From: Raja brachyura
Taxonomy: Eukaryota
Length of the DNA: 64,000 bases
Reading direction: 5' to 3'
NCBI GenBank assembly: GCA_963514005.1
Contig: OY740807.1
Span: forward strand, 23,994,001-24,058,000
The position numbers and the translations under genes were made by a program. Under the pieces are notes generated by a model, which worked only from the letters and a program-made list of their open reading frames with translations, searched no databases and was not told the DNA's origin. Of this stretch, positions 638 through 64,000 are shown piece by piece (the first letter of the stretch is position 1; each line of letters starts with the position of its first letter).

Positions 638-838
638 AGATATACATGAAATGCTGGAGTTACTCAGCGGGTCAGGCAGCATCTCTGGAGAAGACGGAGC
701 CATCTTCAGACTCAATTTTTGGTCTCGACCTGAAACTTCACCTATTCCTTTTCTCCCCAGATGCTGCCTGACCCGCTTTGTTACTCCAGCATTTTGTGTC
801 TATCTTCGGTGTAAACCAGCATCTGCTGTTCTTTCCTA
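638..838. mobile_element. Penelope-like terminal-repeat derivative, fold-back (inverted) dimer insertion
   Basis: Inverted arms (ATGCTGGAGT...CAGGCAGCATCT / AGATGCTGCCTG...ACTCCAGCAT); flanked by CAAACAAAT[G/A]ATTA at 624-637 and 839-852 (13/14 match). Confidence 0.75.
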
Positions 839-1559
839 CAAACAAATAATTATGTTTTGCATTTGATGTGCTGGGCCAGTTTTGACCCAAGCAATTTGAA
901 ATGAGTTGTGAGAATTGCGCAGTCTAGGGGGAATGTATCAGAATCATGTTGATAGCTGTAGTAAGGAGGTACCATAGCTGGTGCTATGCATCAGAAGCAG
1001 TATTTGTAATGATCCTTTTGCTGGCATGGTAGAAGGTTTGTGGCCAGTTAATGCGGTTTGCAGTTTCCCTGTGCGATTCCCCTTGGAAAGTTTGATAGTG
1101 GCATGGTTTTCAGCATCTGGCTCGATGTTAAGACCCACAGCAGCCACTGTTGTGGCAATTTCGCAAATCATTGATTCTTTTTTGTTCATTTTAAAAAAAA
1201 TGTGATTTTCACAAATTGCCCTTGGGAAATGGTGGATGAGCTGCAGCCCGCTATAGTATTGTATTTTTATGACTTGCTTAAGGGTTCATGTGGTGGTATT
1301 GGAACAAGGTTGAGAGATTTATTGGGAAGAGACTATTTATGTGACTCCAACAGTTACATTTCTAGTCAGCATTGGCACCCAAAGTGTTGGCAGTGTAGCA
1401 CTTGGTGATAGTAATGCCACTGAATATTAATGGTAGGAGATTGGAGTCCGTTATTGGGGATGGCGATTGTTGGTAATTTTGTGGGGCCTATTTTACTTAC
1501 TACAAATCATCCCTGGTTTGAATGCTGCCTACATCCCGCTGAATGCAAGAGCGGGCTGC

Positions 1560-2131
1560 TTAATCTGGCCGCATTTGGAATATTGCGAACAGTTTTGGCC
1601 CCCATATCTGTGGAAGGCCGTGCAGGCTCTGGAGAGGGTCCAGAGGACATTTACGGGATTGATCCCATGAATGAGTGGGTTAACATATGATGTGCATTTG
1701 ACGGCACTGCGCCTCTACTCGCTGGAGTTTAGAAGGATGAGGAGAGACCTCACAGAAACTCACCGAATAGTAAAAGGCCTGGATAGAGTGGATGAGGAGA
1801 AGATGTTTCCACTAGTGGGAGAGTCTAGGACAAGAGGTCATTACCTTAGAATAAAAGGACGTTCTTTAGGAAGGAGATGAGGAGGAATTTCTTATGTCAG
1901 AGGGTGGTGAATCTGGAATTCATTGCCATAGAAGGCTGTGTAGGCCAAATTCAATTATATTTTAAGGCAGAGATAGATGGATTCTTGTTTAGTACGGGTG
2001 CCACGAGTTATGGGGAGAAGGCGGGAGAATGGGGTCAGGAAGGAGAGATAGATCAGCCATGATTGAATGATGGAGTATACTTGATGGGCCGAATGGCTTC
2101 ATTCTGCTCCTATCATTTATGAACATATGAA
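1560..2131 (+). mobile_element. CR1-clade LINE (HER1-like) 3' fragment
   Basis: LIWPHLEYCEQFWPPY resembles the CR1 RT C-terminus LVRPHLEYCVQFWSP; LYSLEFRRMRRDL; typical 3' end GGCCGAATGG...TTCTGCTCCTATCA. Confidence 0.88.
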
Positions 2132-2199
2132 CCTATCTGCTGAGAAGTTGGAAATGGTATTGAACAATGTGCAATCATTAGTGAACATTGAACTTCTGG

Positions 2200-3000
2200 C
2201 TTTATGATAGTTTGGAGATTCATGTTCCTTAGGACTAAGTCCTTATCCCTAGATTTGTTGATAAATTTCTCAGCAGCAGGAATATTGTTGGAAATAATTG
2301 TGCATGTGGTGTAAATAACACAGGGTTGCTTGTTGAGAAATAAAATTTGGTGGTTTGCCAGTGATAGTCTGCTATTTGCATGCTTTGTGGGAGTGTAAGG
2401 GTGTAATTTCAATGTTGTTGCCCCATCCAAGATTTTGTCATGTGGTAGGAAGAATAAGGTTTGGGTTCTTCGGTAAACATTTGGGCCTTTGTGAACAACA
2501 GAGGAATAATCATAACAGCAGTCCTGGAATATGCTGGAATTTAAAGATTTGCACTTGGTCTGCTGCCCCATCTTTTTTTGTTGCGGTGGATGTGACTTTG
2601 GAATTCGTTTCCAAAGGTGATTTTCTTTCCTTTGAAAGGCACTGTTCGACCTGAGTACATTTGATGCTTCTGGTTCTTTTCATTTTAAAAGTTGGGTCCA
2701 ACAAAATTAATTCTGTTTGCATATGCATGGGCATGTTAAAACTCTAGTGTCACATACTGCCTGTGCTGATGCTGCACGAAGCCAATGGAGAAAATTGTCG
2801 TGGGTCCCTAGACTCTGGGAAGGAGGGATTCACATCTACGCGTCCTCCTACCTTGGTTTGTAAGATCACAAGGGAGGAGAAGAGTTGTCCACATCCTTCA
2901 AGTATTGTCCAGACAGTTAACCCCCACAAGCCTTCCTTTGTACCTCGCATTTCCCCCCTCCCCCCCCACCCCCCCGCCTCCTCTCAATAAATCTCTCAAC
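2200..3000 (-). pseudogene. Possible highly decayed Ty3/Gypsy integrase relic
   Basis: ORF 2113-2571 has a loose match to integrase core order: SIF...VVHKGP (cf. IVSDNGP), LHPYTP (cf. APYHP), YTTCTIISNNIPAAE (cf. YRTTPHSTTG.SPAE). Confidence 0.3.
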
Positions 3001-3217
3001 TCCTTTTTCATACCGCCACATGTTCTCTTGAACAGGGCATAAAAAGCTACACAGGAGAACACAAAGACAAAATAATTTGTTTTAAAGACACCTTCTGCCT
3101 TTGATAGGATTTCTGACCTAATTGAGAACAAGTTCCTCGCCACTTTGGCAATGAAGTCAGTATCATCATCCTCACTGCTTTCTGGGATTTAAAAGTACCT
3201 TAAAACACCCACCAACT

Positions 3218-3343
3218 TCTGAAGAAAGGTCTTGATCCAAAACGTCACCTATTCCTTTTCTCTCGAGATGCTGCCTGACCCGCTGAGTTACTCCAATTGT
3301 GTCTATTGTCGGTGTAAACCAGCACCGGCAGTTCCTTCCAACA
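3218..3343 (+). mobile_element. Penelope-derived short element with degenerate hammerhead core
   Basis: CTGAAGA-AAGGTCTTGATCC-AAAACGTC (GAAA mutated to AAAA) followed by the family consensus tail. Confidence 0.75.
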
Positions 3344-3475
3344 CATTCCTCTTACACAGTTGTTGTTAAAGGACAAGGAGAGAAAACAAAACTTGGACTT
3401 GATTAGAGATGTTGGTTTGGCAGAAGGTAGTTAACACAGCAGCGATACACTTTATTCCAGTACTGATGAACCTGA

Positions 3476-4920: not shown

Positions 4921-6037
4921 TAACTGATTTTTATTGATGTTGCTTGAGTGATAAGTATATTTCTGTAAAAAATATTTTAAATTTGTCTTTCACTGAAATA
5001 ATAACTAAATGTGAGAAACATTCAATAGGTCACGCAGTATCTGTGAGAATATAATTCAGTTCTACTGATGGGTCCCCGGCCTAAAATGTTAACTGTTTCC
5101 CTTTCCACAGATCCTGTCTGAGTGTTCCCAGCATTTGTTTGTTCTTATTTCAGATTTTCAGCTGCAGTTTTTTTTTTAACATTCATTGTCCATAACTTGT
5201 CTTTCCTGGGTGCCGTAACCAAATGCAACTAACTTGAATGAATCTTTGTAAATGGCCATTTCTGTTATATGCAGCCTTAGTAGAACCACTTCACGTAATT
5301 CTGAGTTGTTTCAGAGCATCAATAAATTCTTGTTTTAGGACCAGCCAATCCTTCCCTCTTTGCTGTTGGCAGCCAGACCTTTATTTTTATTTCACTTCTT
5401 CATGAGGAGCTTCCAGATGATTCTACTTTAATCAGGTGCTCTAATTTGGGGGTTTCAGGAATGTTAATGGACTTGGCTGTTTAGTAGTAACCTGCAAGGT
5501 TGATCAAAAATTAATCTTGAATTAAAAACAACACTTTCCTGCAGCTGACTTTGACAAATCTGGTGGATTTACTCTGAATGCACAGTTCCTGCAGACTGTA
5601 ACTGGTCATTGTGTGCAGTCATTCATGATACACAAGTTCTAATTGCACACGTTCTAATTTCTATCTAAGATTAAAAGGTTGATACATGATGCAGTTCCTG
5701 TGCATTGCCTCATAGCTTTTACATTTTAGAGTAGCCTTTTTGAGATGGTTTTCAATTAGTGTGTAAGAATCCCACTTGTTCCTGATGCTTGGAGATTGAG
5801 ACTTGAACACCCCGACGCACATTCTGCCACCAGTTTTCCGCACAAGTGTAAATTCATTGTTCTTTAGACTTACCTGGTGTGCGTTCAAAATCCAATCTTA
5901 CCGCAGAATGCTCAGAAGAAATCATAGACTTGCTCTGCGATCAGCTTATATGTTTTGTTATTTATTAATACTGCTATGTTTGTGACTCCCTCGACAATTC
6001 CCCTTTATTCCCCAATCAACATGGGAGAATACAATGT

Positions 6038-6206
6038 GGAAACACCGAACTGCAGATGCTGGTTCACAAAAAAAAGACACGCTGTGCTGGGAGAACTGAG
6101 TGGGTCAGGCAGCATTCCTGGAGGACATGGGCAGAGGATATTTCGACCTGAAACAGGACCTGCTTCCTGACACGCTGAGCTACTCTAGCACTCTTTTTTT
6201 TTTTTA
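6038..6206. mobile_element. Penelope-derived fold-back insertion
   Basis: Family arms in inverted arrangement; perfect 13-bp TSD GAGAATACAATGT at 6025-6037 and 6207-6219. Confidence 0.78.
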
Positions 6207-6445
6207 GAGAATACAATGTTATGGAGATTATTTATAGTTTTCCCTTGTTTCTTCCCTCGGCCAATTAATCTTTCAACCACATATTGCCTGCTTAAGAACC
6301 TTGGATGCTTAATCAAAATCAATTTAATTTAACGCAATGCTTGTCCTTGTTCAGCCTGTGGACTTGGTTAAAATCTTCTACAGTCTTGTCCTTGATTATT
6401 CCTGTAATTATTGCAGCCCACCCCCAATTTGTTTATGGGGACAAT

Positions 6446-6685
6446 AAGGAACTGTAGTTGCTGGAATCTTTAGTAGAACACAAAGTGCTGGAGTAACTCA
6501 GTGGGTGAAGCATCATCTTTGTAGTACATAGATGGACGACTTTTCGGATCGGGACTCTTCTTCAGACCGATTGAGCTCCCGATCTCCCCCTCATCCCCCT
6601 ACTACAATCAAATCAATGTGTTGCCGATCAATGTTCTCCAGAGATGCTGCCTGACCCGCCGAGTTACTCCAACACTTTGTGTTTC
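6446..6685. mobile_element. Penelope-derived fold-back element with minus-strand hammerhead-like core at 6535-6567
   Basis: Reverse complement reads GTCTGAAGAAGAGTCCCGATCCGAAAAGTC; inverted family arms. Confidence 0.72.
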
Positions 6686-6714
6686 ATTCCTACTTGGTTT
6701 TATTCACTTCTTAG

Positions 6715-7570: not shown

Positions 7571-9558
7571 CAGCTCTGGCCCATATTTCGATCAAGTCTG
7601 CCTTGGCTCGAGGGCGGAACTGTTCCAGTAAAACACTCTACTCAATCCTATATCATTCTGCATCTCCAGCAGCATTCATTTTGAACAAGCTCTAAATTTT
7701 CCTGATACAGGGGATCCCTGTGTTATGAAGACCTGGTTTATGTCAACCCAACCTCATGTATATTCCCCCCATAAAGTTTTTTTAATGATTTTCAAGACAA
7801 AAAACATAATTTTCAGAAAGCATATATCTTTGGGAGTTATGGAATAAGGGTAGTCGCTAGTTAGTTCAAAAGAAAACAATTAAAAAAAAAAAGTGTTTAC
7901 ATATAACCTCCCCACAATAATCAAAATGACACATTGTCTTTCATAGCAACCAGTGCATAACAGGTCACTTAAGAGATTTGCTTTGGAAACTGGCAAGGCA
8001 AATTGCTTCTGTTCATAAAACAATGTAACATCCATTGATACTTTTATGGCCATTGAACTATCCATTGAATATGGGACATTCTGTTTCTGTACTATTTGTA
8101 ACCACTTGGGGAAAGACACTAACTAAATGATAATTAACCAGCGTTGAAACTGTTTATGACTTATGAAGAAAAAATGATTTATGGACAGTTTTGAGGTACA
8201 AAACCCTTGCGTAAAACAGGGACTGTTTATATCTCCTTGGCTTTCCTTGATTAGGCGTAATTTTGGACAGAATATACTCCTGTGGAGCATCTTGGGAATT
8301 ATTAACTAGAGTGCAGGTTATATGCAATAAAGAAGTTTATAGATGACTATATTTTTTAGAGTGTGTACATATGTACAAATACGGTTTAAATCTCCAGACA
8401 CCAAGTTTTCAAAGTTGAGATTTCCCTGCATGAAATCTGTTTTGTTCATTATTAGAACCTGTACCATATGTCAGAACTGAATCTTATATCAGATTGTCTG
8501 CATCTTCTATGACTACACATCACATGAAATGAACTATTCTACTTTCTTGAATGTCTTGAGCACATTCTGAGACCAACAATCTTTTTGCATCCCAAGTTAT
8601 TCCATTTGTAACGTTTAATTATCCATGCACTGCCCAATGATCTGCTGTATCTTAACCATATTCTGCTGCTTGAGATCTGGGATGAATGCAGCTTGCTTGC
8701 TCATTTGACTTTAGGCCTTAGACTCCTGCATTGATCCTTTAATATCAGTATTTATTTATAATCCATTTAATTTCCTTTGAGATATTCACTATTATGATAA
8801 AACGCCAATTTTTGTTTCTCGTTTCCATTTATCTTTCCACAGTTCTGGCAATGCTTAATATTATTTACGTGTGGATTTTCTAAGTACACAATGTTGTCAA
8901 CATTACTTCAGCAACACATTTGACTCCAGAAGGCAGTAAATGTTTCTGGTGGAGAGCCATATGCAGTTTGTTGAGCGTACATTATGCTGCGTCTTTGCAT
9001 TATAGGAGATCGTTGACCTGAAATGTTAACAGTTGCTTTCTCCACAGATGCTGTCTGACCTCCTGACTATTTCCAGAAATAGCTGCTTTTTGTTTAGATT
9101 TACGGCATCTACTATTTTGCTTCTGTGTATTTGTTTTAACTTCTGGCACACAACACAGAATTAATTTTGGATCCCACCACAGCATGGAAAAAAAATCACT
9201 TTCATGATTGTATATTAGATTCTTTGCAACACCTCCCTCTTTCCTACTAATGACAGACAGCCCATCATTTCATTGAATTTACAGCACAGAATCAGGCAAT
9301 TCGGCCCAACTAGTTTCACGGTGGGAATAAATAGAGGAAATATTGATGGTGTTCAATAGATTATTGGGCAGCATCTCAAAAGCGGTGATAGAGTTTATGT
9401 CCCAGAACTAGGAAATATTCTGATATAAAGATGGTTTAAATAAGTGCAGAGGCTGGGAAAAGAGGAGCTAAAATAAATCAAGCCTTAATATAGGATGAAA
9501 GACAATTGCTAAATGACAAACAGGAATAATGTTGTAAGAAACAGGTGATAAATGGGTA

Positions 9559-9685
9559 GGAAGGAACTGCCTGGTTTTCACCAAAGATGCTGGTTTACAT
9601 GTAAGATAGACACTAAATGCTTGAGTAACTCAGTGGGACAGGCAGCATCTCTGGCGAGAAGGAATGGGTGACGTTCTGGATGAGA
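9559..9685 (-). mobile_element. Penelope-derived short element
   Basis: GGAAGGAACTGC...AGATAGACAC...GGCAGCATCTCTGG...GGGTGACGTT family sequence. Confidence 0.72.
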
Positions 9686-10315
9686 TATTTTTGTTTTGAA
9701 AATCACGAAGACCTCTGGTGGAATAAATAAGGAGAAATGATTCCCAGGACTGATGAACAATTCACCAGTGAACGCTGACTGGTAAACGATCTGGAGCAAA
9801 TGTGAGGAAATATTTTTTTTGCAGTGAGTTCTTTGGATTTGGAATGGACTGCCCGAAAGAAAGAAGGATAAAATTTCACTGTTGAACTTCAAAAAGAATT
9901 GAGTGAGTGCAAAGAAGAAAGGATTACAAGTGTGCTCGGAAAGTGAAGGGAATCAGAACTAACTGTTTGAAGTGCTGGTTCAAAGATTTTGGGCGGAATT
10001 GTTTCCTCCTTTGGTGTAACTGTTCTGTTTCCTGGCCTATTTTCCTTTGTTTCGTGGCAGTTCTATCCCTTTCTTTTAGAAATTAATCTCTTCCCATGCA
10101 TCTGGTACAATTAATTCATATTTTTGAGATTCACTGAGTCATTCCATTACATTCCAGTAAAGGTCAGCAGCTTCCTGTGTTTTTCTCATCGGGCCTACAG
10201 CATCAAAATATTGCACTTCCCTTTTAATGTTTTTTTTGCAGAGGAATCACTGCGTAAATAATTTTGGCGTCACTTTGACCTTTTTGTATTCTTAATTAAC
10301 AGCATACAATATCTG

Positions 10316-10885
10316 TGTACGAAGGAACCGCAGATGCTAGTTTACACTGAAGATAGACACAAATTGATGGAGTACCTCAGCGGGACAGGCAGCATCTTTA
10401 ATGGGCAATGTTACGGATCGAGACACTTCTTCAGACTGAGAGTCAGGGGAGAGGTAGACACAGAGATGAGGAAGGGGAAAAGTGTCAAAACAAGACATCA
10501 AAAGAGATGAAGTTCACGGAAAGTGTAGAATGGATCTTTGTCAGCAAGGATAAGTTGACAACAAAGCAAACAGAGATAAAATGTAATCAGGGAGACAGTC
10601 AGACTGTTTGGAGAACCGGGAAGGGGGAGGGATGGAGAGAGAGGGAAAGCAAGGGTTGCCTGAAGTTAGGAAGGTCAATGTTCATACCGATGGGGTGTAA
10701 GCTGCCCAAGCGAAATATGAGGTGCTCTTCCACCAATTTGCGCTGCACCTCCCTCAAGACAATGGAGGATGCCCAAGATAGAAATGTCAGTGGGGGAATG
10801 GGAAGGGTAGTTAAAGTGTTTAGCAATCTGGAGATCAGGTAGGTTTAGGCAGACTGAGTGGAGGTGTTCAGTGAAAGAATCGCTG
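10316..10885 (-). mobile_element. Penelope-like retroelement 3' fragment: GIY-YIG endonuclease C-terminus, 3' UTR and hammerhead-bearing terminal repeat
   Basis: ORF 10599-10826 reads QRKLVEEHLIFRLGSLHPIGMNIDL, the typical PLE endonuclease end R..E...I..L.TL.P.G.N; contiguous on the same strand with the repeat that forms the short elements. Confidence 0.82.
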
Positions 10886-10892
10886 ACATTAT

Positions 10893-11013
10893 TTGTTTAA
10901 GAAGGAACTGCAGATGCTGGAAAATCGAAGGTAGACAAAAATGCTGGAGAAACTCAGCGGGTGAGGCAGCATCTATGGAGCGAAAAAAATAGGCAAAGTT
11001 TCAGGTCAAAACC
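10893..11013 (-). mobile_element. Penelope terminal-repeat unit (second subfamily), in tandem with the fragment above
   Basis: AAGAAGGAACTGCAGATGCTGGAAAATCGAAGGTAGACAAAAATGCTGGAGAAACTCAGCGGG. Confidence 0.75.
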
Positions 11014-11689: not shown

Positions 11690-12470
11690 TGTTGAGGCGC
11701 TGCTGGGCCGTCCCCGTCCCCGTCCCCTCCTGGGTGTCCCGTTCCTATCCGGCTAGCGGGGCGCCGGGCGGCCCGGATTTGCAGCCGGCGCGGGGGGGGG
11801 GGGGTCTGGCTCCAGCTCTGCTCTGCTCCGGCTCCCGAGCGGGCCATTCCCCGGCGGGCTGGGACCGTCGGCTGCGCCTCTCTCCTTGTCCAGTGGCTGT
11901 CGGTTGGCCCCCTCGGTGCCGGTGGGCGTCGAGCGACGGTCATCGGTGGGGATGCACATGGGGTGCTGCACACGGGGTGGTTCGGCGGGCCAGGCAACTT
12001 CTCTGAGGAAGGGTATCGACCCGAAACGTCACCCATTCCTTTTCTCCGGGGATGCTGCCTGTCCAGCTGAGTTGCTGCAGTGCTTTGCGTGTATCCCCGT
12101 CGATGGCTGGTGCTCGACCTCCGGCGGCGCCGGTGGGGTTGTCTGGCGGCCGCTCGGTGGAGCAGCTGGTGGTCCCCGTCCTGTTGGGGGCAGGTTCCTC
12201 AGGAGTTGGAGCGGGGTTGGGCTGGAGTTGGAGCTTCTTCTCTGCGCTGGTTGTGGGCCTGGGGCTGCTGGTGTCCCGTCAGTCCGGGATCGCCCTGGAT
12301 GTCTCTGGCTTGCGCCCGGGCGGGGATGGGACACTCGGGTGGGGACACACACGCACGCACGCGCACACACACATATCCAGTGGCGGTTTGGCAACACTCA
12401 AACCTGGCTGCGGATGAAGTGCGGGTCTGTGTGTGCGCGCAGCTGCTGAGAATGCCTCTCCGCTGGTCCA
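11690..12470. promoter_or_regulatory. CpG-island-like GC-rich segment in the region upstream of the first HIP1 exon seen (probably intron 1)
   Basis: Abrupt GC/CpG enrichment in an AT-rich background; not assignable to a repeat family I recognise. Confidence 0.55.
12003..12030 (+). ncRNA. Minimal type I hammerhead ribozyme core with all catalytic boxes intact, inside a Penelope-derived unit at 12002-12095
   Basis: CUGAGGA-A-GGGU(AUCG)ACCC-GAAAC-GUC; helix I essentially absent in this copy. Confidence 0.6.
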
Positions 12471-16100: not shown

Positions 16101-16321
16101 TCGTCTTCACCATACAGATGGGAAAGGGAATGATTTGACCTAACCTTGTTTGCCATTTAAGTATTCAAGAGGATATTCAGCTTGGGCATGGTTTACTTTT
16201 CACCAAACATTCAGTTGGGTAAATTTCACCCGTGTGGTAAATTGGATAGCCTACTAACATAGAAAGGCTAGAATTGGATGGAGTTAAGTTGCTCTATCAA
16301 TATTCAAACAGTGGCCTACCT

Positions 16322-16415
16322 CTGAAGAAGGGTTTTGGCCCGAAACGTTGCCCATCTCCTTCGCTCCATAGATGCTGCTGCACCCGCTGAGTTTCTCCAG
16401 CATTTTGTGTACCCC
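16322..16415 (+). mobile_element. Penelope-derived short element with intact hammerhead core (16322-16349)
   Basis: CUGAAGA-A-GGGU(UUUG)GCCC-GAAAC-GUU; perfect 12-bp TSD GCCTACCTCTGA at 16314-16325 and 16416-16427. Confidence 0.82.
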
Positions 16416-17979
16416 GCCTACCTCTGACCTCCTGGTGGCTTTACAATTTGGGCAAAGGAACTGGCATGAAAACAAATTGGAAATCCTTAGCAGGCCCATC
16501 AGCATAAGTGGAGAGAGAGAGAGAGAGAACGGTCAACGTTTCAGATTGGAAAGTGTTTCAGTTGCAAAGGAGAAGGGGAGGAGTAAAGAAAATACATGAT
16601 AAAATGAGGAGAGGAAAGGCTGAATGACCAAGATAGTCACAGCATAAAGGAAAATAGGATGGTAATGGTACGTGAAGAAGTCTCTTGTGGTTCCTGATGA
16701 TTAGAAGGAGGCCATTTGGCCCCATCTGGTCTATGTCGACCCTCATGGGAGCAATCCCGTTAATTCCATTACCCTTCCCCATATTGCCATATACTGCTGC
16801 AAATTATTCTTTCTCACATATGCATGCCAGCCTCCCTTTGATTCTTTTTGCTGAAGCCAACACTAAGGTCTAACTTGAAGTAGCTAGTTACCGACCAGAA
16901 TATCTTTGGAGTGTGGGAGATGACCAATATGTCTAGGAGAAATACACAGTAATTGAGAGAAAATGCAAGCTCCACACAGTACCCAATATCAAGATTGAAT
17001 CCGAGTTAAACATTATTGAACAACCCCGCTTTCTTGGATAGACGCCTGTATTGTAATTTTGCTGCAGCAACTTGTCTAGAGTTGCAGCTCATCCAGAAAA
17101 AAAAATCGACATGACATTTGGGTTGTTGAGAGGACTTGTACCGTGATAGATCCAAATTTCTCAGATCTTTTTTTTATCCCATACTGACTAACTTGTAACG
17201 GCTGAAGGCTGGCTTGTGTGCCAGAGGGTACTTTAGGAGGAGGCAGCAATGGATCCTTACGCTGGACATGTGGCTAAATATGGTTTCAAATACTTCACTC
17301 ATGCATTTTGTGCTTGTGGTGTTGAGGAGGGAGATGGTCGGAAGTTCGCTATGACATCGGGGAAGGCCATTCAACTCATTATGTCATCCATCAGCAATCC
17401 CATTGATTGTTTACCCTGTTATTTGTTAGCCCATAGCTTTGCAAATCATTATCTTTAGCGATTGTACAATCCAGTTTTAAAAGCCTAATTGTCTCTGGTT
17501 CTTTCAACCCTGCAAACAGATTTACAGATCATAATTTCTCGATGCCTCAGGTCCTCCATTCTCTTGACCAGAAATTTAAATCTGCACCACCCCTCTCATT
17601 CCTAAAAAATGATTTTTCACATCAACAAAGGACACAAAGCAATCACAACTGTGGAAGTAGACAATTAGTTCCAATATTTGAACAGCCAGTAGACAGAAAA
17701 CCATTAGCAACCAGCAAACATAAGGAAACAAGCCAATGTAACTGCTCAAATTGTTTCAGACACTATCTTTATGTGAACTTGCTATCAGTCGTTCAATTTT
17801 ATATACTCAGAATGAAATTCACATCTAAATAATTGTAAGTGTGTCCAGAAGTTTGGGAAGATAACAAGAAACTGGCAATAGAAATTGACTTTTTGGCAGG
17901 TGTGTCGGTAGAACAGAAATTAATGCATTATAAATAAATGTTAATGTAATTTCACTGGGTTAAGATCTGCTAATATGAG

Positions 17980-18351
17980 ACTGCAGTTGCAGGAATTTTG
18001 AGCAAAAAATTCCAAGTGCTGGAGGAACTCTGGGTCAGCCACCACCTGATGGGAATGGACAGACAAAGTTTCTGTCTGGACCCTTCTTCAGACTGATGGA
18101 TTAGAGGGTAGAAAGCTTGAAATGAGTGGTAGGGTTGGGCATAGCCAGGTAAGTGACAGGCGGATACAGGTGAGGAGGGGGTGTGATTTGCTTATGGACT
18201 GAGTAAACGCTAAAGACGAGACCCTTCTTCAGACTCGACCCGCAATGTCACATATTCCTTTTCTCCAGAGATGCTGTCTGACCCGCTAAGTTACTCCAGC
18301 TTTTTGTGTCTAACTTCGGTTTAAACCAGCATCTGCAATTCTTTTGACACA
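17980..18351. mobile_element. Two Penelope-derived units: a minus-strand 3' UTR fragment and a fold-back unit
   Basis: CCCTTCTTCAGAC occurs twice; family tail AGATGCTGTCTGACCCGCT...CAGCATCTGCA. Confidence 0.7.
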
Positions 18352-19552: not shown

Positions 19553-19747
19553 CCCGTCACTTGCCAGACTTTGTCCTGCCCCCACCTCTCTTCCAGCTTT
19601 CTCTGTCCACAATCAGTCTGAAGAAACGTTTGGATCTGAATTGTCACCTGTCCATGTTCTCCAGAGATGCTTCTTGACATGCTCAGTTACTCCAGCATTT
19701 GTTTTATTTTTTGGTATACCAGCATCTGCAGTTCCATGCGTCTCTAC
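19553..19747 (+). mobile_element. Penelope-derived unit with part of the 3' UTR and a degenerate hammerhead
   Basis: CAGTCTGAAGAA...GTCACCTG...CAGAGATGC...CAGCATCTGCAGTTCC. Confidence 0.7.
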
Positions 19748-21649
19748 CATTATGGCACCTGGCTTTACCCATCTGGATGTCCATTTGATGTATTCAATTT
19801 GGGAGTTGATGTTGATGAAGTTGTGCTGAGTTAAAGTAGTGTATTTTGCACTTGGTACGGACTGCAACAAAAGAGCATTGGCGTTGAAGTGATTAAAATG
19901 GTGAATGGTCTATCTGTAAAGTGGACAGTTGTATCCAGAATACTTTTGTGTTGGTTGACAATTATTGGAGCTGCACTCAGCTGTGGAAATATAGAGTATT
20001 CCACCATTCACCTAATTAAGCCTTTAAATAGTGGAAAGGCTGTAGAAAGTGAATTTGAGTATGGACCTGCAGTAGTAGCGACAACATTTGCATTGATCCG
20101 GATACGTTTTGGACAGTAGTGGAGAATTAAATCATGCATTGTTGAAGAAGATCTCGCACAGATGAGTGGATTCACTAAGAAATGGTCACTGCTTGGTGTA
20201 AATGTTATGGCTATTTATCAACCAATTTCTGAATGTTGTTCAGATGTAGGACATGTGACCTTGGATGACTAGATTATCTAAGTGGCTGTAAATGAAAGTG
20301 ACTGTTGAGAAATGATAAGTGAACATTTTCACTTGTGACTTTATGACTGAATGAAGATTGTTAAGGAAGTTTAAAAGATGTTCTGTTGCTGAAATTACCC
20401 TCTGATGACCCCATGCATCTTAGTTTGTCAGGTGTAACCTCATCATTGGAGAATTTTCATTTAACCCCAATTCTTCAGTTGTATATAGGCTCCCGGATGC
20501 AAACAGCCAAATGCTTTATTGATGCCAAGGGCAATCTCTTTCATCATTTATTTTATGCTTCAGGTCTTTGCTCATTGCTTTAGTTATGTTTGAAGCTAAA
20601 TTTCCTCACAAGACCAAACCATGCCTGAACTATTTTTTAATTCCTGCTCTAACCCCTGGTTTGTCCTGATTACCGAAGACTAAAGTGAAATGCATTAAAC
20701 ACTGGAAATCTGAAAAGGATAGAAGATGCAGGAATTACTCAGCAGCTCAGATAACATTTGTTGAGAGAGGTCAATTTGACATTTTGAATGGATAACCTGT
20801 CAGCATGAAATCAGTAATAAGTTCCTCCAAGTGATGTCGCAGGTGATACACACCTATTGTGTGGGCAGCCAAACATCACCCTTCCTTTCTCTATTGCCAA
20901 AGGGACTATTTTGATGTATGCCTTTGCCACGATGACAATCAGGATAGTTCTGCTTCTGTATTGACAGTAATCCTCAGTATTCATGGTATTTGTTGCTTTA
21001 TTGAAGTTGGCATCACTAAACATATTACAGTGCAGCCCAATCTATTAACCTGTTACTCAATAAGGCATGTTTAAGGAATATTTTTGGCTTACTGTGTGGA
21101 GTGGAAGCTAGGTCACCTCATGCCATGTCAAATTGTCTAGTTCTTTATAATTAAGTCCTTGCCATTGTTCCGATTGTCGGTTTCTGGTGTCAAATTCATT
21201 GACAGATTCTTTGACACTGTTCTCCTTCAACAATTCAACTCAAATAATTCAATTTGTCTTTGCCTCATTAATGGTCCATTATTTGTGTTTGTGAAGAGAA
21301 ATAGTTTGTTATTGTCTTGAATGTTGAAAGACAGTGATCATTCTATATATTCACTGATAGTTGCAGCCTGTCGTTCGCATGGATCAACAAGTCGGCCCCA
21401 GTATGAGCGCAGTTCACGTCACTCGACACAGTTGGTTGAAGGGGGGGGGGGGGGGGTGGGGGTGGGGGGCGGTGGATGTGCCTGGCCCTCATAGGATTTC
21501 CGTATAAAGCCCTGGTGACATTGCTCGGTTGTGTCCTTGTTGCGGTAGGGAATAGCATCATACCTGCCATGCACCCTCAAGAAACACTCATGCACCACTG
21601 AGAAATGCCAAAATGTTTCAATGCCAATCATCTTGGAAGAAGCAGAATT

Positions 21650-24082: not shown

Positions 24083-24890
24083 ATATCCTTTCTTTTGGGT
24101 GGAGTTGGAGAGAGCACAAAACGAACCCTTATTCGGACTGTGTTTGTTTCTCATTGACTGGGCTGTGTGAGTGTACGGACTGTGGTTTCCTGATTCTCCT
24201 TCAGATGTTTTCAATGTGTTGATGCTGGGAGGCGAGATTTTCTGGATTACACTCCACAAACTTAGACACATTAGCCAGTGTGGAAACTGTGAGTGCAGAA
24301 TTTACAGGTGCATTTGGGAGATTTGTGTGGTTACTGCCTTACATGGGAACAGTGTTTGCCTCTGCTTCTTGACTAGACTTTGGCAAACCACCATGCAGTT
24401 CAAAGCCGGGAATGCTGTGTTTTGTTTTCTATTCTCCCATGTATGTATAATTTGCCTTTGGTCTATGGTTCCTTGCCCAAAGGTATAATTCTTCTGTATG
24501 ATATCATCCTTACATTTATATATAACCCCTACATTCTCTGGCAAGAGTCCGTAGGTGGTGAGCAGGTGTTAGAAATCAGCTATTTTTATTCTTAATATAT
24601 AACATATTCTTAATATAAATTTCCCCCCACCCATGCAAATGTTTATTTTTGAGAAGCCAAGGAATTCTGATTCTGACAAGGATTAGAAAATGTACATTTT
24701 GTGCCTACCTTCAATTTAAATCAGCATCTGCAGTTCTTTTCTACAGAAAAGGAACATCAGCAGGTGCAAGAGTGCAAGTCGAGTCTGTTTTGGTATCTTG
24801 AAATTAAACTACAATTTACTTTTCAGGTAATAGATACTCATTCTGACTGATCACATGGCTCGGATTGTATTTAAATATCACATGCTGCTA

Positions 24891-40395: not shown

Positions 40396-40526
40396 GTCTG
40401 AAGAAGGGTTTCGGCCCAAAACGTTGCCCATTTCCTTCGCTCCATAGATGCTGCCACACCCGCTGAGTTTCTCCAGCAATTTTGTCTACCTTCGATTTTC
40501 CAACATCTGCAATTCTTTCTTGAACA
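40396..40526 (+). mobile_element. Penelope-derived short element, hammerhead core with GAAA mutated to AAAA
   Basis: GTCTGAAGAAGGGTTTCGGCCCAAAACGTTGCCC followed by the family tail. Confidence 0.8.
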
Positions 40527-41209: not shown

Positions 41210-41998
41210 CTGGGAATGAGCAAGTTGATCCCAACCGTCCCTTTACTAATATGGAAAATGGGTGGCTCTTTATCTTGTGTAGTACAAGTTGAATTAATAA
41301 TATAATCCCCTTAAAAGGATAACTCCACTAAATAATGAAGTCATTCTTAAGTATTTCTGTGGGGATTTGCAACTTTGTCTTGATTTTTTTTTTAACACAA
41401 GTACTCTTTTAAGTTTGATGAGGCATAAATCCTACACTGCTCAATCATTCTAATGTGTAAATCTCTGTCTGTCAGAGGTCAACTGAGACTTGTTTCAGGG
41501 TTAAATGCCATGCTTGAATACTGAAACTCAAAACTACTTGCAGATAACTTATTTTGTTCATTTATTTAAAAATCTTGACAATACATCATTTGTGGAATTT
41601 AACACATTTTCCTTGCAATTATTGTGCCTCCACTAATTACTTTGAAACTTCATTGGGAAAAATTTAACTTGTATTTGAAGAATCTTTTGACAGAACCCTG
41701 AACTTAGACTCATTTCAAGCTTTGTGTCTTAAGAATGAGGTAACATTGCAGATTTGTCTTTTTAATGGTGTTGCAAAGTCACAATTTCAGTTATCATTTA
41801 TGTTGAATAAACTGATGTAAATTAGAACATGGAAGGAATGTGGCAGAACGGCTTTAATGTTTTCGATAATTCCATTTGATTAGGGTTGAGGCATTTACTC
41901 TGTGATTCCTGCTGGAAACTCCAGCTATGTTCATGGATTCAATCCTAGTTATGACTTCAGTTTTGATATTGTCTATACCTGAAGCCCATTGACTCTTG

Positions 41999-42080
41999 CA
42001 GTCAGGATGAAGGGCCTCTACCCAAAACTTCGACTGTTCATTTCCCTCCACAAATGGTGCCTAAGTTCCACCAGCAGCTT
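41999..42080 (+). mobile_element. Older Penelope terminal-repeat subfamily retaining hammerhead helix I
   Basis: CAGTC-[AGGATGA]-AGGGCCTCTACCC-[AAAAC]-TTC-GACTG: a 5-bp helix I (CAGTC/GACTG) brackets a decayed core. Confidence 0.55.
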
Positions 42081-42379
42081 TGCTGTCCAATCTGAAGAAT
42101 GAAAATTAGCTCTTTGAACTCCGAGCAAGATGCTGTAGAGCTAAACCATAAAAATAAGTAACAGCTGATGATTTGAGCAAAGAGCATTGTTCTTTACAGA
42201 TCACTTTTAAAGAATTAAACTCATATTGGAGATGCAAGTAATTTAGATTTTTCTGATCTTCAAATTCAGTTTACATTATTTTCTCTTTTTAATTTCCATT
42301 TTGAAAATAACTTGCATCCTTTCCCTTTCATGCTTCATATGTGGAGTTGGTTTTGAAACTCCGAGTCTTGTGGAATGTT

Positions 42380-55757: not shown

Positions 55758-55873
55758 AAATATGTATTGTCGGAGAGAGGCCTGAAGAGAGGTGTCGACC
55801 CGAAAAGTCACCCATTCCTTCTCTCCAGAGATGCTGCCTGTCCCGCTGAGTTACTCCAGCTTTTTGTGTTTAT
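55758..55873 (+). mobile_element. Penelope-derived short element
   Basis: CTGAAGA-GAGGTGTCGACCC-GAAAAGTC from 55782; probable TSD CA[T/A]TGACAGGTG at 55746-55757 and 55874-55885. Confidence 0.75.
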
Positions 55874-56622
55874 CAATGACAGGTGTAGTTGTTCTGAGAA
55901 GATGTATTAGCATAGTTGTTGTATTAATGGAGGACTGGTCTGGTTTGTTTGGTTGTAAGGTATTGTTCTGTGTTTGAGCACTAACCTTTCAAAAACATTT
56001 TCTCATTCTGATTGTGTTTTGAGCATAAGTTCAGGTTCAAATTCCAATATAGAATTATGTGTTTTCAAAATTAAATTCTTCCGAAGGATTATTTGTACTA
56101 ATATGTGAAATTACACAGTCCTCCCAAGTATTAAAGGAATGTTGCCAACCTGTCAGATAGCTTTCTCTAAAAGGAGCACAATAAATTCCAAGTATGGTCT
56201 CTGATGTTAATTTTAGCAACAGCAGCTACCAGATGTTCGACATCCTTTTCCACACCAGTGCCTTTAAACGTATGTAAGCTTATTCCCCGAAAACATCTAA
56301 ACTCTCCACAATGTTTCTAAATGGAGTTTACTACGCACGTTTTATGCAGTCAGGCTAATAAGCAAAAATACTTGCATTACAAATAAGCCCCATAGACAGT
56401 AACACAATGCTGGAAATAAAAATAGAACGTTACTAGAAATATTCAGCAGGTCTTGTGGTGTCCAAGAAGAGGCCTAACAACCTTTCATCAGAACTGAAAA
56501 TCCTAAAGTGCAAATTTCTGTGCATTGGTTCACTTTGTAATGCGATTGCCGAAACATTTCTGGCTCAGAATTTTTAAATTTGTTTTTAATGCTCTTTCTC
56601 ACCTTTTTTTGATTCCATGTAG

Positions 56623-57167: not shown

Positions 57168-57254
57168 GAACGAGCAACTGCAGATGCTGGTTTACAAAAA
57201 GTTTGAGGTTTTTACAAAAAGGTGACGTTTCGGGTTGAGACTCTTCTTCAGACT
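57168..57254 (-). mobile_element. Internally deleted Penelope-derived unit with hammerhead core
   Basis: Reverse complement reads AGTCTGAAGAAGAGTCTCAACCCGAAACGTCACC. Confidence 0.72.
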
Positions 57255-59502: not shown

Positions 59503-61591
59503 TTAGTCTTCCAAAAACATAAGGCTCTCCTGCATTTTAACGATGATGCTGTCTGGTCTAAGAAAATAAAATTTAAAAAAGAGACAAGGTGAGGGTGTAT
59601 TTTAATTCATTTGGACTACAGGAAGAAAAAATACTTAAGTCTGTTCAGTAATTAAAGGAGTGAAATAAATGAGGGGCCACAAAAAAAATTGGGCTGTAAG
59701 TTGAGGTAGAAAAAAAATGCTCATCAACATCTGTTTGGATAGAATGGAAGGAAAAGATTCGGAAGTGCGAAAATGTTGGACTGTTAGAATTGAATGACTT
59801 TTTTCTATGTTCTGTATTTTTTTGCTTTAGTTCCATCTTTAGGCTTTTTTAATTGTATTCCATATAGCATTAGGATGGTTCTACTGGCATAATTCATTAT
59901 GAAATGCCCGTCCAGAATTAATTGGCAAGTGAACTGTTCACTAAAGTAGGCATCTCTTGATGCAGTGAAGTAACTTAAATTTACAGTATCATCGAATAAT
60001 GAGTATTGGGTGAGGAGCAGCTGTGCTTTGGTGTGTATAGAAGCCTGCGAACGGTGAATAAATAACCAGATGTATTTCTTCATCTTTGGTATTTGGAAGA
60101 AAGTTACAATGGCAAAAAATAGAATTCAAATTGATCATGTTTATAAGTCAACCCAAAAATAGAATTATAGGAAGCCATATCGGTATTGTAATCCACTATC
60201 TTTGCATGTATTGGGGACTCTTGTGCAGTGACACTACAGTGGTGTCAGACTGGATTCACCACGTAACACAGGGAAACTCATAGCATCTATCGAGTGAAAC
60301 CACTTGCTTACAAATCTCTCTCTCGGCTCGATTTCTGTCAGGATTGGTAATGGAAATAATGATGCCTATATGGTAAGTTTCAAAGGAATTTAGATGTTTT
60401 TTGGCTGTGAAAGAACCTACAGCTGTTTAAATAAATCGACAGCCGGCACATTATTCAGGTAAAGAGCTCAGACGCAATTCTTACCCGTTCTCTAAAAATA
60501 TCCCTGAAACTGTGTTGGGTCCCAAGAATAAGAGTGATATTCTTCATAACAGTTATCATTCATAAAACAGTTGAAGGACAGTTACTAATTATTGCTTTGT
60601 GTGCAGTAGTTTTGTATGAAGAATGTTTCATGTTGCAGCAATGCCTTGTGAAGCACTTTTAACAGTGAGAGTGATTCAGCTTAGACAGTGTTTTCTCAAT
60701 GTGTTTCTTTCAACTTTGTGCATGGCATTATGTCATATTGGCTTCGCTGTGCTGGAAGTGATTTCATTTCCTAAACATCCCATTGAACTACTCCTTCATA
60801 TCATAGGTTTCAACGGGGGTCATTCTCAATGTGTTAGTGTTTGTCTAGTCTGGAAATTGGTTGTTCTACCACTCCCAACAAAACAGAAATTGTTGTTTTT
60901 ATCGTTGCTTGTTAATTAAATCGTGCATTCTTTCTTTGCTAGATATAAAATATAAGGAGACTAAAGAAATGGGAAAATGCTCTCGAGAATGTACTTAGCT
61001 AAAAGGCAATGTGCCAAATATTAATGGATGCCCCTTGCACAGACAATTTGTAATGTGGGCATTCAGCAGTGCAAAACATTTGGCCATCCAATCTCTGTTA
61101 TTACAACATTATGTTAACCTGCAGTAAGCAAGTATTTCATAGCCTGACATGTTCAAAGACAGCTCCATTTTAGGGCTGTACCCTTTAGTTATTTTCCATA
61201 TTTCATTTGGGTCATCAAATCTATGCCAACTCTTTACAGTCATATGTTCCATACCCCACTTACAGGTCTGTAACCTCCCACATATGCCCTCCCCCCCCCC
61301 CCCCCCCCCCCCCCACACACTCCACCACAATTCTCCCACTGTTCACCTGCACTAGAGGTAGTTTACAGTAACCTATTAATCTGGCTACCAGCAAGCCTTT
61401 GGGGTGTGGGAGGAAACAGGAGCAACAGGAAATCCACACAGTCACAGGGAGAATGTGCAAAAGCCACATTGACACCCTTAGGGGTTAGAATCAAACCTGG
61501 ATCACTGGAGTTAGGTGGTAGCACTGGCGTGGAGTTCAAAAGAAAACTACTGTTCATTGACTTTTCACCGAGCAATTGGAAAACAAATACA

Positions 61592-61723
61592 GTTGAGGAG
61601 GGATCCTGACCTGAAACGTTATCTGTCCACACCCTTCATAAATGCTGCCTGTCTCGGTCAGTTCCTCTAGCACTTTGTGTTATGTTCAAGATTCCAGCAT
61701 CTGTATATAGTTCCTTGTACCTC
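61592..61723 (+). mobile_element. Penelope-derived unit, older subfamily
   Basis: TTGAGGAGGGATCCTGACCTGAAACGTT...ATGCTGCCTG...CCAGCATCTG. Confidence 0.6.
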
Positions 61724-62129
61724 AACTATTGAAGTAAAGTTTAGTTGATGTTATTTTTCCTAAATGAAGACCTGACCTTTATTTGGCAATGCCTCACTAT
61801 GGTGCCTGTGTAATTTTAACTTTGATGAAGTGCAGGTACAGACAGGCAATAAATTTCTGTTCAACATTTTAAAGAGTGGTTCTTTTTGCAAAACATTTGG
61901 CAGGATTGGAATCCTTGACTTGTACGTTGCGTGTAATGAGGATACTTGTTACAGGAATGTAAGAGACCACTTTAGGTAAAAGCACATTTTGAACGTAATT
62001 TGTGTTAATTGAACATTAAACACTGGCATTAGATGTGAAGATAAATGGTGCACACAGCTATAATTTACCACTAGATTGAGGATAGTTATTTTTTCTAACT
62101 TATTTAGTTTTCCATCATAACCCATACAT

Positions 62130-62610
62130 TCTAAGTAACAAAGTAAGCATGCGGGTACAGCAGGCAGTGAAGAAAGCGAATGGCATGTTGGTTCAACGTA
62201 TCATCACAAATTGCCGTGAATATAACCCCCCTGAAAGCGAGTACTGCAAATGTGCCAACATGCTGGAGAAATTTTTCTACTTCAAGATTAAGTAGAAAAA
62301 CAATCTTGTTCATAACAAGAGGAGTTGAGTATAGGACCAAAGAGGTCCTTGTGCAGTTGTGCAGGGCCCTAGTGAGACCACACCTGGAGTATTGTGGTCT
62401 CCAAAAGTGAGGAAGGACATTCTTGCTATTGAGGGAGTGCAGTATACGTTCACGAGGCTAATCCCCGGGATGGCGGGACTGTCATATGTTGATAGATTGG
62501 AGCGGCTGGGCTTGTCTACTCTGGAACTTAGAAGGATGAGAGGGAATCATATTGAAACATATAAGATTATTAAGGGTTTGGACACTCTAGAGGCAGGAAA
62601 CATGGTGCCA
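62130..62610 (+). mobile_element. CR1 LINE RT C-terminal fragment
   Basis: RGVEYRTKEVLVQLCRALVRPHLEYC; KDILAIEGVQYTFTRLIPGMAGLSYVDRLERLGL. Confidence 0.88.
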
Positions 62611-63840
62611 ATGTATTATCTATTATCAATCTCTCTGCACAATGTTGAGTATTTTGCCCATTTCATCTTGCCAGGGAGAATACCATTGCTATATTTTCCA
62701 TGCATTACAAATTCCTTCTTGACATTGATTCTAAATTAGCCCAAACTATTTTTGATTTGTGAGAATGCAAATAGCCTGCCAAAGGCTAACTGAGTGAACA
62801 AGATGAAGTTTAGTATGGGAAGAGTGTGAGCTTCTTTACTGTGAATGACAGAATAGAAAAACAAAGTATTTTCTACAAGTGAGAAACAGGCATATATGAT
62901 TGTACAGAATGAGCTTCACTTTCTGGTTCATGACCATAGAAAATAAGTATGAAGATACAGGAGCTAATTGGGAAGGCAAGTAATATCGTGGCCTTCCTTG
63001 CAAAGTGAATGGTAGACAAAATTGAAGAGTGGTAAACCATTGGCAATCTCTAGTTTAGTGTGTTGTGGCCATAAGTATATTCAAGGCTGATATAAATATT
63101 TGGACACTGAAGGGGTCCATGGTTATGGCAACCAGGTGATAAGGTTGTCTGCACTGAAGGATCAGCTGTTGGTATTTTAGATGAGAGGATTCTTCCTGTA
63201 TTGGAGGAACAGGTTTTGGTAGCCTGTAATTTAGCCACAGTGGTATTTCTTATATTCGTTTTGCCATGTTGTTGTAATGTCTTTTTCAAATAGTCCTCGT
63301 CGAACTTGACTAATACTGATGACACCAGCTCTGAACTGATTTGGTTCATTGCTCCCCCCATAATCCTTTCAGCATTGCTCTCCAAGTTAATGATCAAAGG
63401 ATCTATTATGCACTGTTCCAGTTTACGTTTCCATCTCGCTGCTTTCTCATCTCTATTAAAGGCCAATTGCATTGCAAGAATCACATTTTCTTTGACTAAT
63501 AAATTTTTTTAAAAAGTCATTTTATTCCCAATTAATTAATATTAGCTCACCACCATTCTCCTTCTTGCAGTACATTAAAACAATGATCCTTTGGATTTAC
63601 ACGTTGAATCTTCCACAAGATTCTTGTGGGCCCTTCCACACTAAGTGAGTTCTTGATAAAGGTGACCTTTGAGGGAATATTATGATCTGCACGTCTCCTG
63701 ATTGATTTTGGAAGATAGTGTTGTGCAAATTATCCTCCTGGTGCAAAACAGCCTCTGCACTCAGTTGCTTCCAGGTGGTCTGGCAGCATTGCTCAAGATT
63801 GGGTGTTGGCCCAGGTCCTTGCCTTATCATTAATTCTAAG

Positions 63841-64000
63841 GACACAAATTGTTGGAGTAACTCAGCGGGTCAGGCAGCATCTCGGGAGAACATCAGATCG
63901 CCAGTCTTAAGAAGGGTCCTGACCGGAAATGTCGCCAATACATGTTCTCCAGAGATGCTGCTTGACTCGCTGTGTTACTCCAGCACTTGGTGTTCTTTTG
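63841..64000. mobile_element. Penelope-derived fold-back element at the window edge
   Basis: Inverted arms flank CAGTCTTAAGAAGGGTCCTGACCGGAAATGTC. Confidence 0.75.

What the first reader, a model, noticed from the sequence alone, without database searches (positions are those of the whole stretch)
638..64000. Dispersed family of tiny hammerhead-ribozyme-bearing retroelements (retrozyme/SINE-like Penelope derivatives)
Seen: about 25 related 50-250 bp units with consensus gtCTGAAGA-A-GGGT(ctcg)ACCC-GAAAC-GTC-acc...gatgctgcctg...cagcatctgcagttcc. At least eight have their own 9-16 bp TSDs (638, 6038, 16322, 24698, 25997, 28128, 31766, 55758), so they are independent insertions. The same unit is physically joined to a GIY-YIG endonuclease C-terminus at 10316-10885. 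Established: the hammerhead core is CUGAnGA/GAAA/NUH, an extra A after A9 is tolerated, and Penelope-like elements carry minimal type I hammerheads with a palindromic helix III (here AC-GU). Inference: this is a very high-density population of non-coding, ribozyme-bearing units mobilised by Penelope machinery, usually mis-annotated as a generic SINE. Caveat: helix I is only ~2 bp in the young consensus, although it is 5 bp in the older copy at 41999-42036.
Basis: partly seen in the sequence, partly recalled or inferred. Interest (0 to 1): 0.85.

Follow-up and report, generated by a model that had tools for sequence, protein, structure and literature searches.

The report
Penelope retrotransposon ends carrying hammerhead motifs
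These abundant short repeats are the cut-short ends of a Penelope-type jumping gene of a shark or ray, each holding a mostly decayed hammerhead ribozyme motif of a known kind; they are ordinary apart from where so many of them start.

Summary
The repeats are real: 29 loci, 6.9% of the window; 8 of 28 testable loci have target-site duplications versus about 1 expected. They are the 3' terminal repeat (pLTR) of a Penelope-like element (PLE), probably Neptune clade. One copy is joined through a pyrimidine-rich UTR to a GIY-YIG C-terminus whose best relatives are skate and shark RT-EN proteins. A zebra-shark protein reads through RT, EN, UTR and the same motif. Copies show PLE anatomy: two 3' ends about 36 nt apart and head-to-head arms. 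The motif fits the published minimal PLE hammerhead, but no copy is complete, the core decays neutrally, and covariation is not above controls. 'Retrozyme' fails: no tandem arrays, and 1 of 29 copies starts near the cleavage site. 'SINE' has no support. One unexplained feature remains: 14 of 29 5' ends fall within 6 nt at the hammerhead's 5' edge. This suggests run-off at a transcript 5' end, or a stop at a hairpin. New member of a known kind.

The parts
638..838 (.). Head-to-head pair: inverted arm ending at the short 3' site (+95) plus forward arm +9..+129; 14-bp TSD with 1 mismatch (624-637 / 839-852). Unit numbering: +1 = C3 of the hammerhead core
3218..3345 (+). Single unit 0..+131, GAAA box damaged at a CpG; no TSD found
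4996..5181 (.). Old inverted pair; candidate 12-bp TSD (4980-4991 / 5194-5205)
6038..6206 (.). Inverted pair joined in the helix II region; exact 13-bp TSD (6025-6037 / 6207-6219)
6443..6690 (.). Inverted pair: minus arm with the whole hammerhead span and long end; plus arm with short end
9013..9122 (+). Old unit starting in helix II
9553..9680 (-). Unit starting near +20, long 3' end
10662..10893 (-). C-terminal part of the PLE GIY-YIG endonuclease gene, 5'-truncated, with one frameshift near 10755
10438..10661 (-). Pyrimidine-rich 3' UTR joining the EN gene to the unit
10313..10437 (-). Unit (pLTR end) attached to UTR and EN; hammerhead degenerate
10893..11013 (-). Subfamily B unit +10..+130 abutting the 5' end of the EN fragment in the same orientation
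11982..12097 (.). Forward unit with intact core and perfect helix II (C3 at 12003) but 1-bp helix I; short inverted stub at 11982-12005
16321..16415 (+). Subfamily B unit, intact core, short 3' end; exact 12-bp TSD (16314-16325 / 16416-16427); empty paralogous site at 15787-15832
16469..16686 (-). Old unit with probable upstream UTR (weak alignment)
17972..18200 (-). Older-subfamily unit with upstream UTR (68 nt or more)
18216..18351 (.). Forward unit +13..+131 with inverted stub -2..+16
19563..19742 (+). Unit with about 50 nt of UTR
20701..20790 (-). Old degenerate unit (E 0.01)
24695..24745 (+). 3'-only fragment +79..+129; proposed TSD not above chance
25996..26130 (+). Full unit inside a transposase-like reading; exact 12-bp TSD (25985-25996 / 26131-26142); base pair of helix II mutated
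28128..28286 (.). Inverted pair joined near +17..+24, internal deletion; TSD of 11 bp or more (28112 / 28284)
31765..31851 (+). Subfamily B unit +7..+93; exact 9-bp TSD (31757-31765 / 31850-31858)
34330..34533 (.). Old inverted pair joined at the hammerhead 5' edge
38275..38336 (+). Unit +32..+93, the only copy starting near the cleavage site
39801..39930 (-). Unit with altered core start, long 3' end
40395..40526 (+). Subfamily B full unit -1..+131; G12 lost at a CpG
41998..42093 (+). Old unit: 6-bp helix I, mutated core
55758..55876 (+). Unit +1..+93 preceded by 24 unexplained bases; 12-bp TSD with 1 mismatch (55746 / 55874)
57173..57254 (-). Unit with core boxes intact, 2-bp helix I, one helix II mismatch, internal deletion
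61590..61716 (+). Older-subfamily full unit from -3
63830..64000 (.). Inverted pair; forward arm from -3, cut by the window end

Best explanation
The units are dead-on-arrival 3'-terminal fragments (pLTR plus optional tail) of several generations of an elasmobranch, probably Neptune-clade, Penelope-like retrotransposon, written by the element's own RT-endonuclease from uncleaved PLE RNA. SHOWN: the unit is the PLE 3' end; TSDs; two 3' ends (about +93 and +130); head-to-head pairs with one short and one long arm; 5' ends concentrated in the 5' half of the hammerhead; neutral decay after insertion. INFERRED, by analogy with the Anolis Poseidon enzyme (PMC11167929): the endonuclease nicks the target and RT starts internally at one of two RNA sites. 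When both strands prime, two cDNAs meet and join through the self-complementary stretches of the hammerhead region (a palindrome at -4..+4, the helix II stem-loop, and an imperfect hairpin from about +3 to +44), giving the inverted pairs. When one strand primes, cDNA usually ends at about -3..+1, either because the template starts there or because RT stops there. The hammerhead motif is inherited from source elements, where it may be a weak, protein-assisted or dimeric ribozyme; it does not drive the spread of these copies.
For: EN-UTR-unit continuity at 10313-10893. The 43-aa piece finds 17 proteins, the best being Leucoraja erinacea and whale-shark models. Pfam finds GIY-YIG in 4 of the 16 scanned (1 above the curated cut-off), and a YIDD RT and a C-X4-CxxC linker are visible in them; PMC8557442 names a CX2-5CxxC linker as a Neptune/Nematis feature. 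Zebra-shark P0020 ends SLMKGLRPKR after RT, EN and a Pro/Ser-rich read-through, the same frame in which window copies read SLRKGIDPKR (1 of 190 proteins matched this pattern). 3' ends of 38 arms: 13 at +88..+103, 18 at +117..+131, 3 between, 3 stubs or weak, 1 cut by the window. All 6 scorable inverted pairs have one short and one longer arm, as in the 30-40-bp tail at one end described in PMC3846280 and PMC8557442. 27 of 29 5' ends lie upstream of the cleavage site. Core changes 7/89 versus downstream 36/485 (p 0.83); CpG 14/72 versus 43/639 (p 0.0008).
Against: 14 of 29 5' ends lie within 6 nt (p about 1e-15 under the most favourable geometric truncation model; ends were read by hand from alignments), and 12 such arms tested show no hidden UTR homology, so plain random truncation is wrong. 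Only 1 of 29 loci reaches coding sequence and no RT piece is in the window. Subfamily B (4 arms, support 97/97) has no UTR-bearing copy here. In 4 inverted pairs tested, the partner arm was never clearly the closest relative, so a shared template is not shown. Clade assignment rests on a motif, not on a tree.
Confidence: 0.7

Rival explanations
1. Dedicated non-autonomous short masters: a solo pLTR end of about 130 nt is transcribed by itself from about -3 and copied in trans by the PLE enzyme.
For: Sharp 5' boundary (14 of 29); 25 of 29 loci lack UTR; subfamily B is seen only in short form. Solo pLTRs can act in trans in rotifers (PMC3846280, passages), and non-autonomous PLEs such as MRC1 exist (PMC8557442, passages).
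Against: The same boundary occurs in young and old subfamilies alike, and A-type and older types also occur with UTR or EN attached, so several independent masters would have had to arise with the same 5' end. No unique head sequence; no tRNA gene found.
Confidence: 0.22
2. Non-LTR retrozyme: hammerhead-cleaved monomers circularise and are reinserted.
For: A type I minimal motif with the palindromic ACGU at helix III is present; 2 strict cores versus 0.0 per 64 kb in 100 Markov controls. Retrozymes derive from pLTRs (bioRxiv 2026.07.22.740005).
Against: No head-to-tail copy among 14 TRF rows or among the nhmmer hits. Ends are not at the cleavage site and units are not circularly permuted. Helix I pairs in 53.8% of cells and covariation is not above shuffles (76/500). 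A competing helix that buries the core pairs in 84.6% of cells, and the hammerhead fold is 5.5-15.8 kcal/mol above the MFE in 4 of 5 copies tested.
Confidence: 0.05
3. MITE-like DNA elements or a generic tRNA SINE with a chance hammerhead look.
For: 9 of 29 loci look like inverted-repeat elements; no Rfam hammerhead hit; RNAalifold predicts no consensus structure.
Against: Arms have unequal outer ends, TSDs vary from 9 to 14 bp, 5' ends are truncated, the unit is joined to a PLE EN in two species, and the motif matches the published consensus of PLE minimal hammerheads.
Confidence: 0.03

Closest known systems
Minimal type I hammerheads in pLTRs of metazoan PLEs (Cervera and de la Pena 2014, PMC4209133)
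   Same: CUGAnGA plus one extra base, G10.1-C11.1, GAAA followed by C-G-U-H with no helix III loop; mostly single dispersed motifs; opposite-strand pairs; a 2-bp helix I is listed there for Drosophila, Culex and Oikopleura.
   Different: Helix II is only 4 bp and helix I 2 bp in young subfamilies. The vertebrate rows I saw include no shark or ray (supplement file 2, part 2 of 3; file 1 not searchable). The density here is far higher if the window is typical.
Neptune-clade EN+ Penelope-like elements (PMC8557442, PMC3846280)
   Same: C-terminal GIY-YIG with a Cys linker in relatives, 5' truncation, inverted pLTR arm, 30-40-bp tail at one end, TSDs of about 9-14 bp.
   Different: Nearly all insertions here are under 250 bp and most stop in the hammerhead; no partial tandem of a full ORF in the window.
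Anolis Poseidon element PAc (Frangieh et al. 2024, PMC11167929)
   Same: Two RT start sites defining a tail about 100 nt downstream of the hammerhead; unprocessed RNA used as template; both target strands extended.
   Different: Different clade. In PAc the ORF starts in stem II; here the ORF start could not be placed. TSDs here are 63% AT, close to the window average of about 59%.
Metazoan non-LTR retrozymes (PMC7229834; bioRxiv 2026.07.22.740005)
   Same: Type I hammerhead, PLE pLTR origin, dispersed monomers known; one chondrichthyan genome was reported positive.
   Different: Defined by tandem units, which give circular RNA; none here.

Membership tests
EN+ Penelope-like element | C-terminal GIY-YIG endonuclease upstream of the terminal repeat | tested here: met
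   10662-10893 aligns with the C-terminal half of GIY-YIG-bearing proteins; the window piece itself lacks the GIY-YIG motifs and has no Pfam hit
EN+ Penelope-like element | PLE-type RT in the same ORF | tested here: inconclusive
   Absent from the window; present in shark relatives P0019 and P0020
EN+ Penelope-like element | Inverted pLTR arms and an optional 30-40-bp tail at one end | tested here: met
   9 of 29 loci inverted; 3' ends bimodal; 6 of 6 scorable pairs have one short and one longer arm
EN+ Penelope-like element | Target-site duplications of variable length | tested here: met
   8 of 28 loci versus about 1 expected
EN+ Penelope-like element | Partial-tandem pLTR-ORF-pLTR copies | not testable with these tools
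   No host genome available; none in the 64 kb
Neptune clade | CX2-5CxxC linker between RT and EN; RT phylogeny | tested here: inconclusive
   Linker present in the closest relatives; Nematis shares it; no tree against named clades was built
Minimal type I hammerhead | Core boxes, extra base after A9, helix II with G10.1-C11.1, palindromic 15.2-16.2, NUH | tested here: met
   Majority state of 13 aligned arms; 2 copies pass strictly versus 0.0 in controls
Minimal type I hammerhead | Helix I of 2 bp or more in a copy with an intact core | tested here: not met
   0 copies pass the strict scan at helix I >=2; the majority state would give 2 bp
Minimal type I hammerhead | Covariation in helices I and II | tested here: inconclusive
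   Covariation score reached by 76 of 500 shuffles, 13 rows only; the register beats all slid controls
Minimal type I hammerhead | Self-cleavage at NUH | not testable with these tools
   Needs an in vitro assay
Non-LTR retrozyme | Head-to-tail tandem units each with a hammerhead | tested here: not met
   (window only)
Non-LTR retrozyme | Monomer ends set by the cleavage site; circular RNA | tested here: not met
   1 of 29 5' ends near +29; RNA itself not testable
SINE | Head derived from tRNA, 5S or 7SL RNA with a pol III promoter | tested here: not met
   ARAGORN 0 genes; no such Rfam hit; A/B boxes were not scanned separately

The most novel reading that the evidence does not exclude
The short units are run-off copies of the 5' leader of the PLE's own mRNA. 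Transcription starts at the initiator-like TCAGTC just before the hammerhead (the initiator consensus is recalled, not tested). RT initiates internally 93 or 130 nt downstream and copies to the RNA 5' end, so each autonomous transcript can seed SINE-sized insertions with no non-autonomous master. At the density seen (about 450 loci and 30 strict cores per Mb, if typical) elasmobranch genomes would hold one of the largest hammerhead-motif populations known, and their young 2-bp helix I lineages would test whether PLEs need the ribozyme at all.
Probability: 0.25. Interest if true: 0.6.

Novelty: new member of a known kind. Interest (0 to 1): 0.32.

Why it matters
Minimal hammerheads in PLE ends, their dispersed single copies, inverted arms and tails are all published, so the core finding is ordinary. 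What remains: an elasmobranch example at very high density, not found in my searches, which matters for repeat annotation in sharks and rays; and a very large set of insertion ends with which to test the internal-initiation model of PLE transposition and the still unclear role of the PLE hammerhead. The piling-up of 5' ends at the hammerhead edge rather than at the cleavage site is in vivo-type evidence that uncleaved RNA is the template.

Tried and rejected
Rfam scan: no hammerhead family among 11 hits at E<=5. Pfam on the read-through EN piece and on the 43-aa piece: nothing. Word-seeded homologue search with the 74-residue read-through: 0 of 11 candidates. No look-alike result from the protein atlas was obtained, so that route is unchecked. 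Motif scan of bacterial and archaeal genomes for stray host contigs: 0. tblastn of 88 longer PLE proteins found only the 10662-10893 locus among PLE-type matches and nothing on the unit, so the ORF start was not placed. One search used five wrong anchors and one; they were redone, and only the 5'-end counts are used. RNAalifold gave no consensus fold, and none of 8 single copies folded better than shuffles (best z -1.44). Spliced-template idea (CAG before the core as an acceptor, as at the D. virilis hammerhead): not favoured, because most arms keep the bases 5' of that junction. The 10320 'TSD' was rejected as an artefact and 24698 as within chance. Fold-back of one cDNA as the sole origin of the inversions: not favoured, because inverted arms stop at the short site. 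Supplements of the 2026 bioRxiv preprint (species and family tables) could not be seen and may include this family.
Full report
Numbering: +1 is C3 of the hammerhead core; cleavage would fall between +28 and +29.

Observation. Blast with window copies and a profile from 17 copies find the family on both strands: 41 hits at E<=1, 36 at E<=0.012, against one hit (E 0.095) in the reversed window. These merge into 29 loci covering 6.9% of the window. The 16322 insertion has an empty paralogous site, and the 25997 insertion splits a transposase-like reading whose two halves overlap by the TSD. The units are independent insertions.

Link to Penelope. At 10313-10893 (minus strand) the unit follows a pyrimidine-rich UTR and a frameshifted coding fragment. 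The fragment has no Pfam hit, but its unaltered 43 residues find 17 proteins. The best are Leucoraja erinacea and whale-shark models, which place the fragment at the C-terminus of a GIY-YIG domain preceded by a Cys linker and, in longer relatives, a YIDD RT. PMC8557442 (passages) gives that linker for the Neptune and Nematis clades; Neptune is my inference. A zebra-shark model, P0020, reads through RT, EN and a Pro/Ser-rich stretch into SLMKGLRPKR, the frame in which window units read SLRKGIDPKR or RMKGLYPKLR: independent evidence that the unit is this PLE's 3' end. The host is therefore most likely a shark, skate or ray (inference). Three other loci carry UTR without ORF; no PLE RT piece is in the window.

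Nine of 29 loci are head-to-head: seven with two sizeable arms and two with stubs. Of 38 arms, 13 end at +88..+103 and 18 at +117..+131; 3 old arms fade between, 3 are stubs or weak and 1 is cut by the window. TSD-bounded ends fall at about +93-95 and +127-132. All 6 scorable pairs combine a short and a longer arm. This is the inverted pLTR with a 30-40-bp tail at one end described in PMC3846280 (passages) and PMC8557442. PMC11167929 (parts 1-2 of 4; supplement search without hits) shows in vitro that the tail lies between two internal RT start sites, that both target strands are extended, that unprocessed RNA is the main template, and that the hammerhead there cleaves only with protein present.

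The hammerhead. The majority state of 13 full-span arms fits the minimal PLE hammerhead of PMC4209133 (parts 1-2 of 4; supplement file 2 part 2): core boxes, an extra base after A9, G10.1-C11.1, and GAAA-C-G-U-H. Two strict cores occur versus 0.0 per 64 kb in 100 Markov controls, so the motif is not chance. But neither keeps more than 1 bp of helix I, no copy passes with 2 bp, and the 6-bp helix I copy at 42004 has a broken core. Rfam finds no hammerhead. Pairing is 80.8% in helix II and 53.8% in a 4-bp helix I, with covariation not above shuffles. A competing helix between the purine-rich core and the downstream pyrimidine tract pairs in 84.6% of cells (it was taken from folds of these same copies, which favours it) and dominates predicted folds of young copies. 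In 11 young A-type arms, core positions change as often as downstream ones (7/89 versus 36/485) and CpGs more often (14/72 versus 43/639): neutral decay. A tree separates a B subfamily (4 arms, 97/97) and an old group (4 arms, 95/96); the rest is unresolved (24 of 29 arms used).

Retrozyme or SINE? Retrozymes are defined by tandem units that give circular RNA (PMC7229834, passages; bioRxiv 2026.07.22.740005, parts 1-3 of 5). There are no tandem units here, and only 1 of 29 5' ends lies near the cleavage site, while 27 lie upstream of it. No tRNA gene was found. PMC4209133 already says that most such motifs are single and probably come from truncated PLEs, with some opposite-strand pairs.

What is left unexplained. 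5' ends: 14 of 29 at -4..+1, 9 at +5..+21, 4 far upstream, 2 downstream. Twelve boundary arms show no hidden UTR homology, while the 3 UTR-bearing controls are pyrimidine-rich and partly resemble one another. Six of the 14 are inversion junctions (a seventh, 39806, may carry a tiny stub), and the region holds a palindrome at -4..+4 and the helix II stem-loop, which would let two cDNAs anneal there. The other copies need either a template 5' end or an RT stop. In D. virilis the start site lies about 120 nt upstream of the hammerhead (PMC2377424, passages, read with PMC4209133), which argues against simply assuming a start at -2. A short non-autonomous master would also explain it.

Verdict. Most likely (0.7): truncated or run-off PLE termini made by the element's own enzyme from uncleaved RNA; non-autonomous masters 0.22; retrozyme 0.05. 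PLE abundance in a shark is reported (bioRxiv 10.1101/443036, passages). I found no paper describing this elasmobranch hammerhead (searches; listings only, in a library that lacks most subscription papers and Repbase/Dfam), but the 2026 preprint scored one chondrichthyan genome whose tables I could not see. Also consulted: PMC6155905 and PMC8969392 (passages) and bioRxiv 2025.06.08.657570 (term search, no PLE mention). New member of a known kind; interest 0.32.

Noticed in passing
window 24889-26676: Element of about 1.8 kb with 228-bp inverted ends (90% identical) and a decayed transposase-like reading (QQDNDPK/DPKHT); looks like Tc1/mariner (label recalled; no Pfam hit). A solo end lies at 3475-3663.
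   Followed up: partly
window 53637-55185 (-), 36465-37729 (+), 52704-53318 (-): LINE fragments: RVT_1 in 54271-55185 and 37160-37729; ALKBH8_N matches in 53637-54284 and 52704-53318. Rex1/Babar-like by recall.
   Followed up: partly
window 4641-4921: 281-bp self-inverted element, MITE-like.
   Followed up: no
window 1694-2115, 14488-14640, 38589-38816, 62335-62640: Related LINE 3' fragments, CR1/L2-like by recall.
   Followed up: no
window 37559-37773, 38854-39065, 39683-39760: Another repeat family in three copies, two of them 91% identical over 212 bp.
   Followed up: no
window 10893-11013 next to 10662-10893: A subfamily B unit abuts the 5' end of the EN fragment of an A-type copy in the same orientation, followed at 11015-11060 by a short scrambled repeat; possibly a template switch or insertion at a PLE end.
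   Followed up: partly
unit +32..+52 (e.g. window 26030-26050): Pyrimidine tract, CAG and then an ATG at about +50 resemble a splice acceptor and start codon. The frame is open to the unit end in B copy 40398 and closed in A copy 25999; no match to PLE N-termini.
   Followed up: partly
window 15787-15832 and 16416-16461: An unidentified repeat hosts the 16322 insertion and gives the empty-site control.
   Followed up: partly
window 11690-12450 and 58750-59510: GC-rich islands; the second holds 22-24-bp tandem repeats. The best-preserved hammerhead core (12003) sits in the first and keeps its three CpGs.
   Followed up: no
P0002, P0003, P0014, P0022, P0089: Several elasmobranch gene models are chimeras of host or LINE sequence and PLE coding fragments, a likely annotation artefact of this abundant family.
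   Followed up: no
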